From a virus: DNA of 64,000 nt. Under the pieces are notes generated by a model that saw only the letters and a program-made list of their open reading frames with translations, was not told the origin of the DNA and did no database searches. Each line of letters opens with the position of its first letter. Position 1 is the stretch's first letter. The stretch is taken from IMG/VR virus record IMGVR_UViG_3300025131_000005, one strand, 5' to 3'. This document shows positions 1,219 to 16,670 of this stretch, one piece after another. A program made the translations under genes and the position numbers.

Positions 1219-1267
1219 ATTAAATGTATATACAAAATCTCTTTTAGGAGATTCTTAAGAGGTGACA

Positions 1268-2851
1268 ATGACAGAGCATATAAGCTCCAAGAAATTCCAA
1301 AATGGTACTCAGTTACAAACTCAAATATTAAAAGGAATCAATAACTTAGCAGATGTAGTGGGCTCTACTCTTGGTCCCAAGGGACGCAACGTTCTTATAC
1401 ATAAGAAAGATTTGAATCCGGTAATTACCAAGGATGGTGTAACTGTTGCCAAATTTATAGATTTTGATGATCCTTTCGAGAATGCTGGTGCCCAATTAAT
1501 TAAACAAGTTGCTTCCCAAACAAACAACGTTGCTGGAGATGGTACCACAACTTCTACTATTCTTGCAAGAGCTTTAGTTAATGGTGCACATAAATATATA
1601 ACTGCGGGCGCTAGCCCTATCGATCTTAAACGAGGCATGGACAAAGCCACAGAAGCTATTATAAAAAATCTCAAGGATATTTCTAGACCGATTGAATCTC
1701 AAGCAGACATTGAACATGTAGCTTCAATATCCGCTAATAATGATAGCTCAATTGGCAAGCTTATTTCAACTGCTGTTGAACAGGCTGGGCACGATGGTTC
1801 GATAACTGTTGAAGATGGAAGGTCCCTTGAGACAACTTTGGATGTGGTAGAGGGATTTCGCTTTGGTACTGGATATTTTGCTGGGGCCTTTGTGACTAAC
1901 CAAAGACGCGGATCAGTAGAATATGACGATCCTTATATCATGGTTACTGATTACAAAATAGAATCTGTACAGGATATATTACCAGCTTTAGAATTAATCT
2001 CGCGGGAAGGAAAGCCATTTATCATAATAGCAGAGGAGGTTGAAGGGCAAGCCCTGGCTGCTTTAATTATGAATACAGTCCGGGGAACAATGAAGGTTGC
2101 AGCTGTCAAAGCACCTGGCTATGGGCAGGAACGAAGAGAGATCTTAAGTGATCTTTGTTTATCTTTAGGGGCTACTTTTATTAGTCGCGAATCTGGGAAA
2201 AAATTATCTGAGGTTAAATTAGTTGATTTTGGTAACTGTAATAAAGCTGAGATATTAAAGAATAATACAACCTTGGTAGGCGGCTCTGCTGATTGGGAAA
2301 AAGTGGACGATAAGATTAGTACGTTAAAAGAACTTATTAGCACCACGGATAATTTACAACAATGTGAAAGAATACAAGAAAGGATAACGAGATTAGCTAG
2401 CGGAGTAGCTATTATTAGGGTCGGTGCACCAACGGAAGTAGAAATGATAGAAAAAAGACATCGAATTGAAGATGCCCTTGAAGCCATTCGTTCTGCTCAA
2501 GAAGAAGGAGTCCTTCCGGGGGGAGGTATAGCTCTTTTGCAGGCGGCTAAGGATTTAGAAATAGAAGTAGAAAACGAAGATGAACGTTTTGGAGTTGAGA
2601 TTGTAAAAAAAGCTTGTGCTTCACCCCTACGACAGATGGCAGATAATGCCGATCTCTCTGCGGATTTACTTATCGACAAAATTGAAAATAGTAAAGAACA
2701 AAATGGTTATAATTTTCGGACAGATGAAATGGTTGATTTGTATGATGCCGGAATAATGGATCCGGCCAAAGTAACTCGCGTGGCATTACTTAACGCCGTT
2801 TCTGTAGCTTCGATATTAATAACAACCAATCATGCAATAGTGGAGATTTAA
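1268..2851 (+). CDS. groEL: Chaperonin GroEL (Cpn60), phage type
   Basis: TLGPKGRNV, ITKDGVTVA, AGDGTTT, VKAPGYG and RIEDALEA motifs. No C-terminal GGM tail. Confidence 0.97.
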   Translation: MTEHISSKKFQNGTQLQTQILKGINNLADVVGSTLGPKGRNVLIHKKDLNPVITKDGVTVAKFIDFDDPFENAGAQLIKQVASQTNNVAGDGTTTSTILARALVNGAHKYITAGASPIDLKRGMDKATEAIIKNLKDISRPIESQADIEHVASISANNDSSIGKLISTAVEQAGHDGSITVEDGRSLETTLDVVEGFRFGTGYFAGAFVTNQRRGSVEYDDPYIMVTDYKIESVQDILPALELISREGKPFIIIAEEVEGQALAALIMNTVRGTMKVAAVKAPGYGQERREILSDLCLSLGATFISRESGKKLSEVKLVDFGNCNKAEILKNNTTLVGGSADWEKVDDKISTLKELISTTDNLQQCERIQERITRLASGVAIIRVGAPTEVEMIEKRHRIEDALEAIRSAQEEGVLPGGGIALLQAAKDLEIEVENEDERFGVEIVKKACASPLRQMADNADLSADLLIDKIENSKEQNGYNFRTDEMVDLYDAGIMDPAKVTRVALLNAVSVASILITTNHAIVEI

Positions 2852-5650: not shown

Positions 5651-5727
5651 GCCTTCGTAGCTCAGTTGGATAGAGCAACGGCCTTCTAAGCCATGGGTCA
5701 CAGGTTCGAGTCCTGTCGGAGGTACCA
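5651..5727 (+). tRNA. tRNA-Arg(UCU)
   Basis: Full cloverleaf GCCTTCG/CGGAGGT, anticodon loop CT-TCT-AA, T-loop TTCGAGT, encoded CCA; one C-A mismatch in the anticodon stem. Confidence 0.95.
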
Positions 5728-6619: not shown

Positions 6620-6835
6620 GTGACAGAAAAGAAACCCAAGATACCTTCATTTCTGTTTAGGATATATATATCCCGCCGCGAAGCAAAACTGATTTTGAAT
6701 CGTTTAAATTTAACTGATGCAGAAATTGAAGAGAAGCCTTGGAAGGGCCGATTACAACAAAATTTAGTTGATTTAATTAAGCGCTCTCTGGTCAAGAAAG
6801 ATGAGAAAATAATGGAGAAGAAAGATGCTAGCTGA
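6620..6835 (+). CDS. Hypothetical protein
   Basis: SD GAGGA, GTG start. Confidence 0.55.
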   Translation: MTEKKPKIPSFLFRIYISRREAKLILNRLNLTDAEIEEKPWKGRLQQNLVDLIKRSLVKKDEKIMEKKDAS

Positions 6836-7808
6836 TGTAGTTTTGGGATTGCAATATGGTGATGAAGCTAAGGGAAAAGTTACTCATTATTTGACTAAGT
6901 TTAAACACTATACCCACGTATTGAGATTTAACGGAGGCTGTAATGCAGGCCACACCATTTATCATAATGGTAAGAAGTTTGTCACTCATCATATTCCGGC
7001 TGGTGTTTTTTATGGTATTAAATCTATCATAGGACCGGGCTGTGTGGTTAGTCCCAAACATTTTTTTAAAGAAATAGAACAACTTAAAGCGGGTGGTATT
7101 GACGTTGAAGGAAAGATTTTTATAGCTGAAAATACACATGTAATAATGGAAGAACACATGGCGGAAGAGGCATCTGAGAGCAAGATTGGTACAACGAAAC
7201 GAGGCAACGGGCCTGCCTACCGTGACAAATATAATAGAACCGGTGTCAGAGCTTCTGAAATTCCTTCTCTTAAGCCCTATCTTATTAATTTATATGAAGA
7301 ATTTCATGGAGATACTTGTGTCAATATATTGTGTGAAGGCGCACAAGGCTTTGGATTAGATATTGACTGGGGTGATTATCCCTTTGTAACATCCAGTCAT
7401 TGTGGTCTAGGAGGAGTATTTTTGAACGGTGTTTCTCCTCATTGGATTAGAGATGTGTGGGGGGTTGCTAAAATGTACGAAACGTATGTAGGGTCCAAAT
7501 CCTTTGAGCCAGATCAAGCTGTTTTCCAATCTTTGCGTGATGTAGGCGAGGAATACGGTGCAACGACAGGACGTCCACGGCAGTGTAACTGGATGAACTT
7601 GGATTTCCTTCAACGGAACGCAAGATTTAACTCTGTTAGCAAACTGGTGATCAATAAGGTTGACGTGCTAAGGGAGCTGGGACAATGGAAGCTTTACCAT
7701 AAAAATGAACTACTTGAATTTGAAAATGAAGCGCAAATGTGCGAATACATCTCTGGTGTACTAAATAAGGTAGAGGTCTTTTTTTCCGACGATAAGAACA
7801 GCATCTAA
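6825..7808 (+). CDS. purA: Adenylosuccinate synthetase (short form)
   Basis: QYGDEAKGK, RFNGGCNAGHT, IGTTKRGNGPAY, EGAQG, YPFVTSS and EYGATTGRPR motifs. Confidence 0.96.
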   Translation: MLADVVLGLQYGDEAKGKVTHYLTKFKHYTHVLRFNGGCNAGHTIYHNGKKFVTHHIPAGVFYGIKSIIGPGCVVSPKHFFKEIEQLKAGGIDVEGKIFIAENTHVIMEEHMAEEASESKIGTTKRGNGPAYRDKYNRTGVRASEIPSLKPYLINLYEEFHGDTCVNILCEGAQGFGLDIDWGDYPFVTSSHCGLGGVFLNGVSPHWIRDVWGVAKMYETYVGSKSFEPDQAVFQSLRDVGEEYGATTGRPRQCNWMNLDFLQRNARFNSVSKLVINKVDVLRELGQWKLYHKNELLEFENEAQMCEYISGVLNKVEVFFSDDKNSI

Positions 7809-8367: not shown

Positions 8368-8396
8368 CTTGACTTTTAAGACCGTGTGCATATAAT
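8368..8396 (+). promoter_or_regulatory. Class-B promoter upstream of the tRNA-like RNA
   Basis: TTGACT 8369-74, 16 bp spacer, TATAAT 8391-96. Confidence 0.65.
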
Positions 8397-8408
8397 ATTA
8401 AGAGAAAA

Positions 8409-8488
8409 GGGGGAGTATCCGCTCTGTCTTATAAGCAGTTGAAACGGTAAATGGTTACACGCGGGTTCGATCCCCGTCTCCCCTACCA
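8409..8488 (+). tRNA. Non-canonical tRNA-like RNA, anticodon UAU (Ile), lacking a D-arm
   Basis: Acceptor GGGGGAG/CTCCCCT plus A-CCA; T-arm GCGGG-TTCGATC-CCCGT; anticodon arm CTGT-CTTATAA-GCAG; only 8 nt between acceptor and anticodon stem. Confidence 0.7.
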
Positions 8489-8502: not shown

Positions 8503-8724
8503 ATGTCGAAAAGCCAGGAAAAATATCTACAAGAACTTGCAAAGTATAGTGATGTGATCCTAAATACGAGCACTACATACGTGAAAAAATCATTACCAAG
8601 TGAAAAGATTAAGATCTTGGAAGTGCAAGAAGGGGTTGTGGTTCTGGAGAATGTACGGACTGGCAATATCTTCACTAAGACAACTCATTGGTGCAGAAAG
8701 AATCTCGTTCCGAGCGGAGAATAA
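8503..8724 (+). CDS. Hypothetical protein
   Basis: ORF after the tRNA-like RNA. Confidence 0.55.
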   Translation: MSKSQEKYLQELAKYSDVILNTSTTYVKKSLPSEKIKILEVQEGVVVLENVRTGNIFTKTTHWCRKNLVPSGE

Positions 8725-16586: not shown

Positions 16587-16670
16587 AGCACTGTGGCGGA
16601 ATTGGCATACGCAACGGACTTAAAATCCGTCGCCCGTAAGGGATTGAGGGTTCAAGTCCCTCCAGTGCTA
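16587..16670 (+). tRNA. tRNA-Leu(UAA), CCA not encoded
   Basis: AGCACTG/CAGTGCT acceptor, D-loop AATTGGCATA, anticodon arm ACGGA-CTTAAAA-TCCGT, long variable arm, T-loop TTCAAGT. Confidence 0.95.

What the first reader, a model, noticed from the sequence alone, without database searches (positions are those of the whole stretch)
8409..8488. D-armless tRNA-like RNA with UAU anticodon and a displaced GG hairpin
Seen: a complete acceptor stem with CCA, a canonical T-arm and a 7-nt anticodon loop (CU-UAU-AA), but only 8 nt (TATCCGCT) where a D-arm belongs. About 22 nt sit in the variable position and fold as GTAA-ATGG-TTAC; CCG (8419-21) can also pair with CGG (8445-47). It has its own promoter. 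Established: bacteria normally read AUA with lysidine-modified CAU, and the D-loop GG contacts the T-loop. Inference: the ATGG loop could replace that GG, giving a rearranged cloverleaf that reads AUA without TilS, or acts as a decoy for anticodon nucleases.
Basis: partly seen in the sequence, partly recalled or inferred. Interest (0 to 1): 0.8.

Follow-up and report, generated by a model that had tools for sequence, protein, structure and literature searches.

The report
Rewired phage isoleucine tRNA (UAU)
This 80-base gene in an uncultured marine phage is very probably a working isoleucine tRNA for the AUA codon whose inner segments lie in a different order from the universal cloverleaf, a layout shared by many phages, missed by tRNA finders and absent from every paper I could search.

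Summary
Window 8409-8488 has a 7-bp acceptor stem with CCA, a standard T-arm and a CUUAUAA anticodon loop, but no D hairpin. ARAGORN does not call it, and Rfam tRNA scores 28.6 bits against a cut-off of 29.

It is not D-armless. CCG 8419-21 pairs with CGG 8445-47 around the anticodon arm. In 37 homologues this helix is 100% paired, with 22 and 17 double changes. A 9-nt D-loop-like segment (A14 R15 .. G18 G19 N20 .. A21) follows it, just before the T-arm.

Evidence that the family decodes:
- The base after GG is A in 9/9 arginine members and 0/44 others (A20, the ArgRS determinant).
- R15 covaries with the base before the T-stem.
- In 17 large phage tRNA arrays, all 18 non-CAU rewired genes carry an anticodon that the ordinary tRNAs lack.
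- A 74%-identical relative keeps this gene at 77/80.
- Relatives carry an ordinary tRNA-Ile(UAU) nearby.
- AUA makes up 34% of this phage's Ile codons.

No expression or charging data exist. The decoy idea is not supported. This scan has reported the same family many times on other DNA, and I found no paper describing it.

The parts
8369..8396 (+). Sigma-70-type promoter: TTGACT (8369-8374), 16-nt spacer, TATAAT (8391-8396). The predicted start is about 8402-8404, leaving a 5-7 nt leader for RNase P to remove.
   Evidence: 11 of 12 match; the exact motif occurs 4 times in the window against 0.1 expected; both hexamers are kept in the TARA relative while the spacer diverged. The start site and RNase P step are inferred.
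8409..8415 (+). Acceptor stem, 5' strand (GGGGGAG), pairs with 8478-8484.
   Evidence: all 7 pairs covary across the family (97.7% of cells paired).
8416..8418 (+). U8, A9, and a U that faces U8448.
   Evidence: UAU is invariant in the main class, partly because the search pattern fixed it. The sister class has UA + A/U/G.
8419..8421 (+). D-stem-equivalent helix, 5' strand (CCG), pairs with CGG 8445-8447 across the anticodon arm.
   Evidence: 100% paired in 37 sequences; the two variable pairs have 22 and 17 double changes. RNAalifold predicts it on its own; the sister class shows ACC/GGU, AUC/GAU, ACG/CGU.
8422..8423 (+). 5' linker CU. U8423 may form a U.U fifth pair of the anticodon stem with U8439.
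   Evidence: Read from the sequence. The U.U pair is inferred.
8424..8438 (+). Anticodon arm: stem CUGU/GCAG, loop C32 U33 U34 A35 U36 A37 A38. Anticodon UAU is at 8430-8432.
8439..8444 (+). 3' linker UUGAAA (5-6 nt), about the length of a class I variable loop.
   Evidence: Its invariance is partly due to the search pattern. The sister class has a 5-nt linker, ACYWA.
8445..8448 (+). D-stem-equivalent helix, 3' strand (CGG), followed by U8448.
8449..8457 (+). D-loop-equivalent segment AAAUGGUUA: A14 8449, A15 8450, G18 G19 8453-8454, U20 8455, A21 8457.
   Evidence: GG is present in 53/53 although it was not in the search pattern. The base after GG is A in 9/9 Arg members and 0/44 others (Fisher p = 2e-10). 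The segment has the same 9-nt length and GGUUA as the ordinary tRNA-Ile(UAU) of relatives.
8458..8460 (+). CAC joint to the T-stem. C8460 sits in the place of Y48.
   Evidence: R15 against this base is A-U 29, G-C 14, A-C 3 (this copy among them), G-G 7. (nine unique sequences): the same rule in every one.
8461..8477 (+). T-arm: GCGGG / UUCGAUC / CCCGU.
   Evidence: all 5 pairs covary.
8478..8488 (+). Acceptor stem 3' strand CUCCCCU, discriminator A 8485, encoded CCA 8486-8488.
   Evidence: The discriminator is A in 44/44 non-Arg members.

Best explanation
The gene encodes a working elongator tRNA-Ile(UAU) that supplies AUA decoding to an AT-rich marine phage. It keeps every functional module of a tRNA, but two inner blocks are transposed.

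- Ordinary order: 8-9, [D-stem 5' strand + D-loop], [D-stem 3' strand + anticodon arm + variable loop], T-arm.
- Order here: 8-9, [stem strand + anticodon arm + 5-6 nt linker], [stem strand + D-loop], Y48, T-arm.

The D-stem equivalent is therefore a long-range helix that extends the anticodon stem. The D-loop equivalent leaves its top and runs straight into the T-stem.

Shown:
- the helix, by covariation
- the D-loop-like consensus
- identity elements that track the anticodon
- filling of gaps in phage tRNA sets
- purifying selection in this lineage.

Inferred:
- It folds into the usual L-shape. The three new backbone joints (9 to 22, 47 to 10, 21 to 48) link residues that are neighbours in the canonical core (U8-A14-A21, R15-Y48, 9-12-23 and 45-10-25 contacts).
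- It is cut by RNase P, charged by the host IleRS and used on the ribosome.
- It arose by duplication of the inner part followed by loss of the outer copies.
For: Structure:
- Helix 8419-21/8445-47 is 100% paired, with 22 and 17 double changes.
- RNAalifold finds the same fold.
- A sister class with unrelated sequence has the same topology and covaries when the helix is left free in the search.

Core contacts:
- G18G19 is present in 53/53 members.
- R15/Y48-like pairs are A-U 29 and G-C 14 of 53.

Identity:
- A after GG in 9/9 Arg members and 0/44 others, p = 2e-10.
- G73 occurs only in Arg members; A73 in all Ile/Met/Val members.
- This matches bacterial determinants: A20 and A/G73 for Arg; A73 and U20 for Ile (PMC9976931).
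- The window's own ordinary tRNA-Arg has GGA.

Decoding role:
- 18/18 non-CAU rewired genes in 17 arrays of 15 or more ordinary tRNAs carry an anticodon absent from the ordinary set.
- In L020, 30 ordinary tRNAs cover 19 amino acids, and the rewired gene is Ile(GAU).

This lineage:
- The TARA relative is 74% identical over 6.9 kb but 77/80 in the gene; one change turns a G.U pair into G-C.
- Relatives carry ordinary tRNA-Ile(UAU) within 1.5 kb of the same purA-like gene.
- The window's three tRNA genes match AUA (34% of Ile), AGA (38% of Arg) and UUA (34% of Leu).
- Model R1 scores this gene 92.9 bits, against 17 bits for the ordinary tRNAs in the window.
Against: - There is no expression, processing, modification or aminoacylation evidence for any member.
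- The L-shape is argued from known contacts, not modelled.
- The homologue set was gathered with a pattern that fixes UAUC, CUCUG and CAGUUGAAA. Invariance of those columns therefore means little, and many sequences are related (crAss-like group), which inflates the counts.
- This copy has A15.C48 rather than a Levitt-type pair, and a G1.U72 end pair.
- Only 64 kb of the phage is in hand, so an ordinary tRNA-Ile(UAU) elsewhere in its genome cannot be excluded.
- One array (L007) has both a rewired and an ordinary UAU gene.
Confidence: 0.72

Rival explanations
1. It is a tRNA mimic that is not used in translation. It could be a decoy or sponge for host anticodon nucleases or other tRNA-targeting defence proteins.
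For: Phage tRNAs are known to counter tRNA-targeting defences (PMC10264068, PMC11464382, PMC11555353). The anticodon stem-loop is canonical while the body is unusual.
Against: - Anticodons fill the holes of phage tRNA sets, 18/18.
- Synthetase determinants outside the anticodon (A20, discriminator) track the anticodon. A nuclease bait has no need for that.
- The CCA end, acceptor stem and T-arm are all under selection.
Confidence: 0.12
2. It is a tRNA-like processing or regulatory element for the operon it heads. For example, it could be an RNase P cleavage signal that shapes the 5' end of the mRNA of ORF 8503-8724.
For: It lies between a strong promoter and an ORF that starts 14 nt after the CCA, with no terminator.
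Against: - Family members sit inside dense tRNA arrays in unrelated phages, not in one mRNA context.
- The conserved anticodon loop and identity elements would be unexplained.
- Ordinary phage tRNAs are also co-transcribed with ORFs.
Confidence: 0.06
3. It is a decayed tRNA pseudogene, in which a D-arm deletion and an insertion happen to give a foldable remnant.
For: Rfam aligns it as a tRNA with a deleted D-arm and an 18-nt insert. The single-sequence fold is no better than shuffles (z = -0.46).
Against: - There are 53 unique main-class members plus a sister class, in Streptomyces, Bacteroides, marine and other phages, with compensatory changes in all helices.
- The gene is 96% conserved where its flanks are 74%.
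Confidence: 0.02
4. The transcript is cut and rejoined after transcription into an ordinary cloverleaf, as with permuted or split tRNA genes.
For: None found. It is considered only because permuted tRNA genes exist in a red alga.
Against: - The acceptor 5' and 3' strands are already in normal order.
- Restoring the cloverleaf would need two cuts and two ligations inside the core.
- The helix that covaries is the one formed by the unrearranged transcript.
- No bulge-helix-bulge motif is evident in the sequence.
Confidence: 0.02

Closest known systems
Ordinary bacterial and phage elongator tRNA-Ile(UAU), Rfam RF00005. Examples: the genes at L084 6449-6525 and L129 3907-3983 in this phage's relatives, and Mycoplasma mobile tRNA-Ile(UAU) (PMC3575796).
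   Same: 7/5 acceptor/T-stem layout, U8 A9, the same CUUAUAA anticodon loop, a 9-nt D-loop sequence ending GGUUA, GUUCRA T-loop, A73, encoded CCA. The expected role is the same: reading AUA without lysidine.
   Different: The D-loop and one D-stem strand lie 3' of the anticodon arm. The D-stem is a long-range helix, there is no D hairpin and no separate variable loop. ARAGORN does not call it and its Rfam score is below the cut-off.
D-armless mitochondrial tRNAs (for example metazoan mt tRNA-Ser(AGY) and nematode mt tRNAs; PMC2797822, PMC3326299)
   Same: There is no D hairpin between the acceptor and anticodon stems. Both are missed by standard finders.
   Different: Those tRNAs have truly lost the D-arm and the G18G19/T-loop contacts, and are shorter (about 55-65 nt). 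This one is full length (77 nt) and keeps the D-stem pairs, A14, R15, G18G19, A21 and a normal T-loop.
Allo-tRNAs and other 8/4 or 9/3 tRNAs (Mukai et al. 2017, PMC5389517)
   Same: Non-standard tRNAs found in bacteria and phages by metagenome mining, some with UAU anticodons.
   Different: Allo-tRNAs are still cloverleaves with a D hairpin, a long variable arm and an 8/4 or 9/3 acceptor/T layout. This gene is 7/5, with no D hairpin and no covarying variable arm.
Permuted tRNA genes of Cyanidioschyzon merolae (reviewed in PMC4090602)
   Same: The order of tRNA segments in the gene differs from the textbook order.
   Different: Those are circular permutations of the whole gene, undone by RNA processing to give a normal cloverleaf. 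Here the ends are normal, two inner blocks are swapped, and covariation supports the fold of the unprocessed order.

Membership tests
Canonical tRNA (Rfam RF00005 cloverleaf) | 7-bp acceptor stem, discriminator, 5-bp T-stem with GUUCRANYC loop | tested here: met
   both stems covary. The T-loop is UUCGAUC.
Canonical tRNA (Rfam RF00005 cloverleaf) | Anticodon arm with a 7-nt loop, U33 and purine 37 | tested here: met
   CUGU/GCAG stem (plus a possible U.U pair), loop C U UAU A A.
Canonical tRNA (Rfam RF00005 cloverleaf) | D hairpin (stem 10-13/22-25 closing the D-loop) between position 9 and the anticodon stem | tested here: not met
   Only 8 nt lie there. Rfam deletes the D-arm. The pairing partner lies 3' of the anticodon arm.
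Canonical tRNA (Rfam RF00005 cloverleaf) | Reaches the Rfam gathering score, or is called by a tRNA finder | tested here: not met
   28.6 bits against 29. ARAGORN gives no call here or in 0/56 family genes. In 12 sampled loci, 5 of 13 main-class genes scored 29.9-33.6 bits and 8 fell below the cut-off, while ordinary tRNAs scored 40-74 bits. tRNAscan-SE was not available.
Canonical tRNA (functional definition) | Aminoacylated and used on the ribosome | not testable with these tools
   Only indirect evidence: identity elements and gap filling.
Rewired (block-transposed) phage tRNA family, as defined here by model R1 | A covarying helix whose strands flank the anticodon arm, followed by U-A14-R15..G18G19..A21 and then the T-arm | tested here: met
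   R1 scores 92.9 bits, E = 8e-26, full length.
D-armless mitochondrial-type tRNA | The D-arm is replaced by a short unpaired connector, G18G19 is lost, and overall length is reduced | tested here: not met
   77 nt; GG conserved in 53/53; a D-stem equivalent is present.
Allo-tRNA (8/4 or 9/3) | 12-bp acceptor branch split 8/4 or 9/3, with a long variable arm (PMC5389517 abstract) | tested here: not met
   7/5 split with covariation in all 12 pairs. The candidate variable hairpin does not covary.
Permuted tRNA gene | The 3' half is encoded upstream of the 5' half, so the acceptor strands are in reversed gene order | tested here: not met
   The acceptor 5' strand (8409-15) precedes the 3' strand (8478-84).

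The most novel reading that the evidence does not exclude
A tRNA that is not a cloverleaf works in translation. The rewired core is charged by host class Ia synthetases (IleRS here; ArgRS and perhaps ValRS or MetRS for other members) and read on the ribosome. Phages keep this layout because it escapes host tRNA-targeting defence nucleases, or the phage's own attack on host tRNAs, which recognise the ordinary D-arm/core.
Probability: 0.2. Interest if true: 0.95.

Novelty: new variant of a known kind. Interest (0 to 1): 0.8.

Why it matters
All known cytoplasmic tRNAs share one chain order, and exceptions so far are losses of arms in mitochondria. A full-size tRNA that rebuilds the same core with its segments in another order would have three consequences.
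- It would show that the cloverleaf order is not required for the L-shape.
- It would give a natural test case for how synthetases, RNase P, EF-Tu, modification enzymes and the ribosome read tRNA shape.
- It would expose a blind spot in annotation. Phage tRNA sets that look as if they lack Ile or Arg are in fact complete.

It may also bear on the arms race around tRNA-cleaving defence systems. It could offer a new scaffold for orthogonal tRNAs.

Tried and rejected
Counted on 37 sequences, it shows no double changes and the middle pair is unpaired in 12. Rejected as a conserved element.
- Single-sequence folding. The MFE is no better than shuffles (z = -0.46) and gives a different, unsupported fold. 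Uninformative.
- Own-genome search. No genome is held for this window.
- Nucleotide search of the phage collection with 25 kb. Only tRNA-Arg hits came back, so there is no close cultured relative. GroEL tblastn reached at most 45% identity in the listed rows.
- A second copy in the window. None found.
- A rewired gene in 80 loci of relatives found through the purA-like neighbour. None found, only ordinary tRNAs.
- Cellular origin. Only 9 true hits in one genome each of 185,579 species. Of these, 8 lie next to other tRNA genes, 5 in arrays of 7-22 tRNAs, and one has none within 8 kb. Most are on MAG contigs.
- Literature. Eight searches (D-armless, non-cloverleaf, permuted, T5 unusual tRNAs, phage-encoded tRNA structure, and others) found no description. 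Allo-tRNAs were checked and differ.
- The two adjacent 962-aa ORFs are not paralogues.

Full report
**What is there**

Window 8409-8488 (+ strand) reads as follows:
- acceptor GGGGGAG
- UA
- U-CCG-CU
- anticodon arm CUGU/CUUAUAA/GCAG
- UUGAAA
- CGG-U
- AAAUGGUUA
- CAC
- T-arm GCGGG/UUCGAUC/CCCGU
- acceptor CUCCCCU, then A and CCA.

ARAGORN finds only tRNA-Arg(UCU) at 5651 and tRNA-Leu(UAA) at 16587 in the 64 kb. Rfam at gathering threshold finds the same two. With relaxed thresholds the Rfam tRNA model aligns 8409-8485 at 28.6 bits, just under its cut-off of 29. It does so by deleting the D-arm and inserting 18 nt before the T-arm.

**It is one of a family**

A blastn search of the phage collection hit the same layout in Streptomyces phages and in a crAss-like Kehishuvirus. 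In Mildred21 it is annotated 'tRNA-Phe(gaa)', although the loop reads UCG. In Kehishuvirus it is unannotated.

A pattern built from the shared core found 78 stretches in IMG/VR. Of these, 69 passed the stricter family pattern that adds NNGUA, giving 42 distinct sequences (which also counts the window's own copy). Adding the genome-collection hits gives 53 unique main-class genes. Their anticodons are GAU and UAU (Ile), CAU, UCU/CCU/ACG/UCG (Arg) and one UAC (Val).

In one genome for each of 185,579 prokaryote species the same pattern gave only 9 true members. Of these, 8 lie next to other tRNA genes, 5 of them in arrays of 7-22 tRNAs, and one has none within 8 kb. Most are on MAG contigs. On this sampling the family is essentially viral.

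**Structure**

On 37 distinct sequences the helix CNN/NNG (window 8419-21 with 8445-47) is paired in 100% of cells. Its two variable pairs have 22 and 17 changes on both sides. The acceptor and T stems also covary throughout. RNAalifold predicts exactly this structure without being told.

The search pattern fixed UAUC, CUCUG and CAGUUGAAA, so the constancy of those columns carries no weight. The two variable helix positions, the GG and everything 3' of it were free.

A sister class with different sequence was found by model R1 inside the same phage arrays, and then by a pattern that leaves the helix free. It has the same topology, and its helix reads ACC/GGU, AUC/GAU, ACG/CGU or UCC/GGU.

**The segment behind the helix is a D-loop**

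After the helix comes U, then A-R-(1-3 nt)-G-G-N-(1-2 nt)-A. This has the consensus and the 9-nt length of an ordinary D-loop (A14 R15 .. G18 G19 N20 .. A21). Compare AGUAGGUUA in the ordinary tRNA-Ile(UAU) of this phage's relatives.

GG is present in 53/53 members.

The purine at '15' covaries with the last base before the T-stem: A with U in 29, G with C in 14, A-C in 3, G-G in 7. All nine unique sequences follow the same rule. This is the pattern of the R15-Y48 Levitt pair.

The base after GG is A in all 9 arginine members and in none of the 44 others (Fisher p = 2e-10). Among sister-class genes it is A in 4 of 5 arginine members and in none of the 4 Ile members (sequences). A20 is the main determinant for bacterial ArgRS, and U20 and A73 are listed for IleRS (PMC9976931).

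G73 occurs only in arginine members, and A73 occurs in all Ile/Met/Val members. The window's ordinary tRNA-Arg also has GGA.

Synthetase determinants outside the anticodon therefore follow the anticodon. That is expected of tRNAs that are charged.

**How the parts fit (inference)**

Relative to a cloverleaf, the block [D-stem strand + D-loop] and the block [D-stem strand + anticodon arm + variable-loop-length linker] have changed places.

If the long-range helix stacks on the anticodon stem as the D-stem does, the strand that precedes A14 occupies the place of 10-13. The strand after A9 occupies the place of 22-25.

Only three backbone joints then differ: 9 to 22, 47 to 10, and 21 to 48. Each joins residues that are neighbours in the known tRNA core:
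- U8-A14-A21 triple
- R15-Y48
- A9 on 12-23
- 45 on 10-25
- 26-44.

The stack has 3 pairs plus U.U, then C/U-linker contacts, then U.U plus 4 pairs. That is about the 10 layers of D-stem + 26 + anticodon stem.

I could not model this in 3D. A duplication of the inner part followed by loss of the outer copies would produce exactly this order.

**Does it decode?**

I took unique loci with at least 15 ordinary tRNAs called by ARAGORN (17 arrays). In these, all 18 rewired genes with a non-CAU anticodon carry an anticodon that the ordinary set lacks. By comparison, 35 of 347 ordinary tRNAs have a same-anticodon twin.
- In L020, 30 ordinary tRNAs cover every amino acid except Ile, and the rewired gene is GAU.
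- In L011 and L019, rewired GAU and UAU genes are the only Ile tRNAs.

Many arrays are related, so these are not 18 independent events. Duplicates occur for CAU, which is expected since CAU serves three tRNA species, and once for UAU (L007).

ARAGORN called 0 of 56 rewired genes. In a sample of 12 loci, Rfam scored five main-class genes at 29.9-33.6 bits and left eight below the cut-off. Ordinary tRNAs scored 40-74 bits.

**This phage**

The window has groEL-like and purA/purZ-like genes and no close cultured relative.

Two marine metagenome contigs carry the same gene at the same place:
- Ga0098061 (L227) is about 90% identical over 8 kb, and identical in the gene and its promoter.
- A TARA contig (L226) is 74% identical over 6.9 kb but 77/80 in the gene. 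One of the three changes turns the G.U pair of the T-stem into G-C. Both promoter hexamers are kept although the spacer differs.

More distant relatives, found through the purA-like neighbour, lack the rewired gene. Some carry an ordinary tRNA-Ile(UAU) with the same CUUAUAA loop close to that gene (L084, L129). Supplying a UAU tRNA is thus a recurrent trait of this group, met here by the rewired form.

In 51 long ORFs of the window, AUA is 34% of Ile codons, AGA 38% of Arg and UUA 34% of Leu. These are exactly the three codons served by the window's three tRNA genes.

The promoter TTGACT-16-TATAAT at 8369-8396 is an 11/12 match. Its exact form occurs four times in the window against 0.1 expected. 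There is no terminator before the ORF at 8503, so the tRNA heads an operon. It needs RNase P and 3' trimming (inferred).

**Rivals**

- A decoy for anticodon nucleases fits the current interest in phage tRNAs as counter-defence. It does not explain A20/G73 tracking or the gap filling.
- A pseudogene is excluded by covariation and by 96% versus 74% conservation.
- RNA-level reordering is unsupported.
- A purely cis processing signal does not fit the family's presence in dense tRNA arrays.

What remains open is why the layout exists. Escape from nucleases or other factors that read the ordinary core is attractive but untested.

**Prior knowledge**

Eight full-text searches found no description. 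Allo-tRNAs (PMC5389517) are 8/4 or 9/3 cloverleaves and differ. D-armless mitochondrial tRNAs have lost, not moved, the D elements.

This scan has reported the same family many times on other DNA, with Ile UAU/GAU and Arg members, and with the same reading. One note says that part of a related claim fell on later checking, but I could not learn which part.

**Verdict**

- Observation: confirmed.
- Interpretation: partly supported.
- Most likely a working, non-cloverleaf tRNA-Ile(UAU): confidence 0.72.
- Experimental proof of charging and decoding is lacking for the whole family.

Noticed in passing
L003:11632-11708, L012:310-387, L040:4973-5049, L163:7210-7286, L228-L235; L058:2534-2608, L062:4361-4438, L018:1681-1759, L076:6682-6761, L064:4639-4715: A sister class of rewired tRNAs (Ile GAU; Arg UCU/UCG/ACG) has a different core sequence: a 5-bp anticodon stem, a 5-nt linker ACYWA and the D-loop tail GGUUGAAAAY. 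Its topology is the same, and the helix covaries (ACC/GGU, AUC/GAU, ACG/CGU). It often sits in the same phage as a main-class gene.
   Followed up: partly
L003, L004, L010, L012, L014, L023, L029, L040, L061-L063, L068, L074, L168, L223: Rewired CAU genes have G1-C72, mostly C4-G69, and often a U50.U64 mismatch in the T-stem. In 7 of 15 cases they sit beside an ordinary CAU tRNA. They may be lysidine-type tRNA-Ile2 rather than tRNA-Met, which would make the family mainly Ile plus Arg.
   Followed up: no
L001 596-671 (Streptomyces phage Mildred21, MF155946.1 91367-91442): A rewired gene with loop CUUCGAA (anticodon UCG, Arg) is annotated in GenBank as tRNA-Phe(gaa). The same gene is unannotated in TunaTartare, Braelyn, Persimmon and others. 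These genes lie next to HNH or endonuclease VII genes.
   Followed up: partly
window 6825-7808: A short (327 aa) adenylosuccinate synthetase-family gene (PF00709; PHROG 1211, named as the PurZ-type enzyme) has 342 relatives in IMG/VR marine contigs. I did not test whether it is PurZ (2-aminoadenine genomes) or PurA-like.
   Followed up: no
window 1262-2851: A phage-encoded GroEL-like chaperonin (PHROG 5725, E = 6e-146); the top listed match in the phage collection is 45% identical.
   Followed up: no
window 8369, 10834, 30339 (-), 30368: The exact motif TTGACT-N15-18-TATAAT occurs four times against 0.1 expected by chance. Another first-stage note describes a wider promoter set with a phage sigma factor in this window.
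   Followed up: partly
L021 2049-2452 and L058 6508-6874: Two phage contigs that carry rewired tRNAs also encode full-length tmRNA genes (Rfam RF00023, 72 bits).
   Followed up: no
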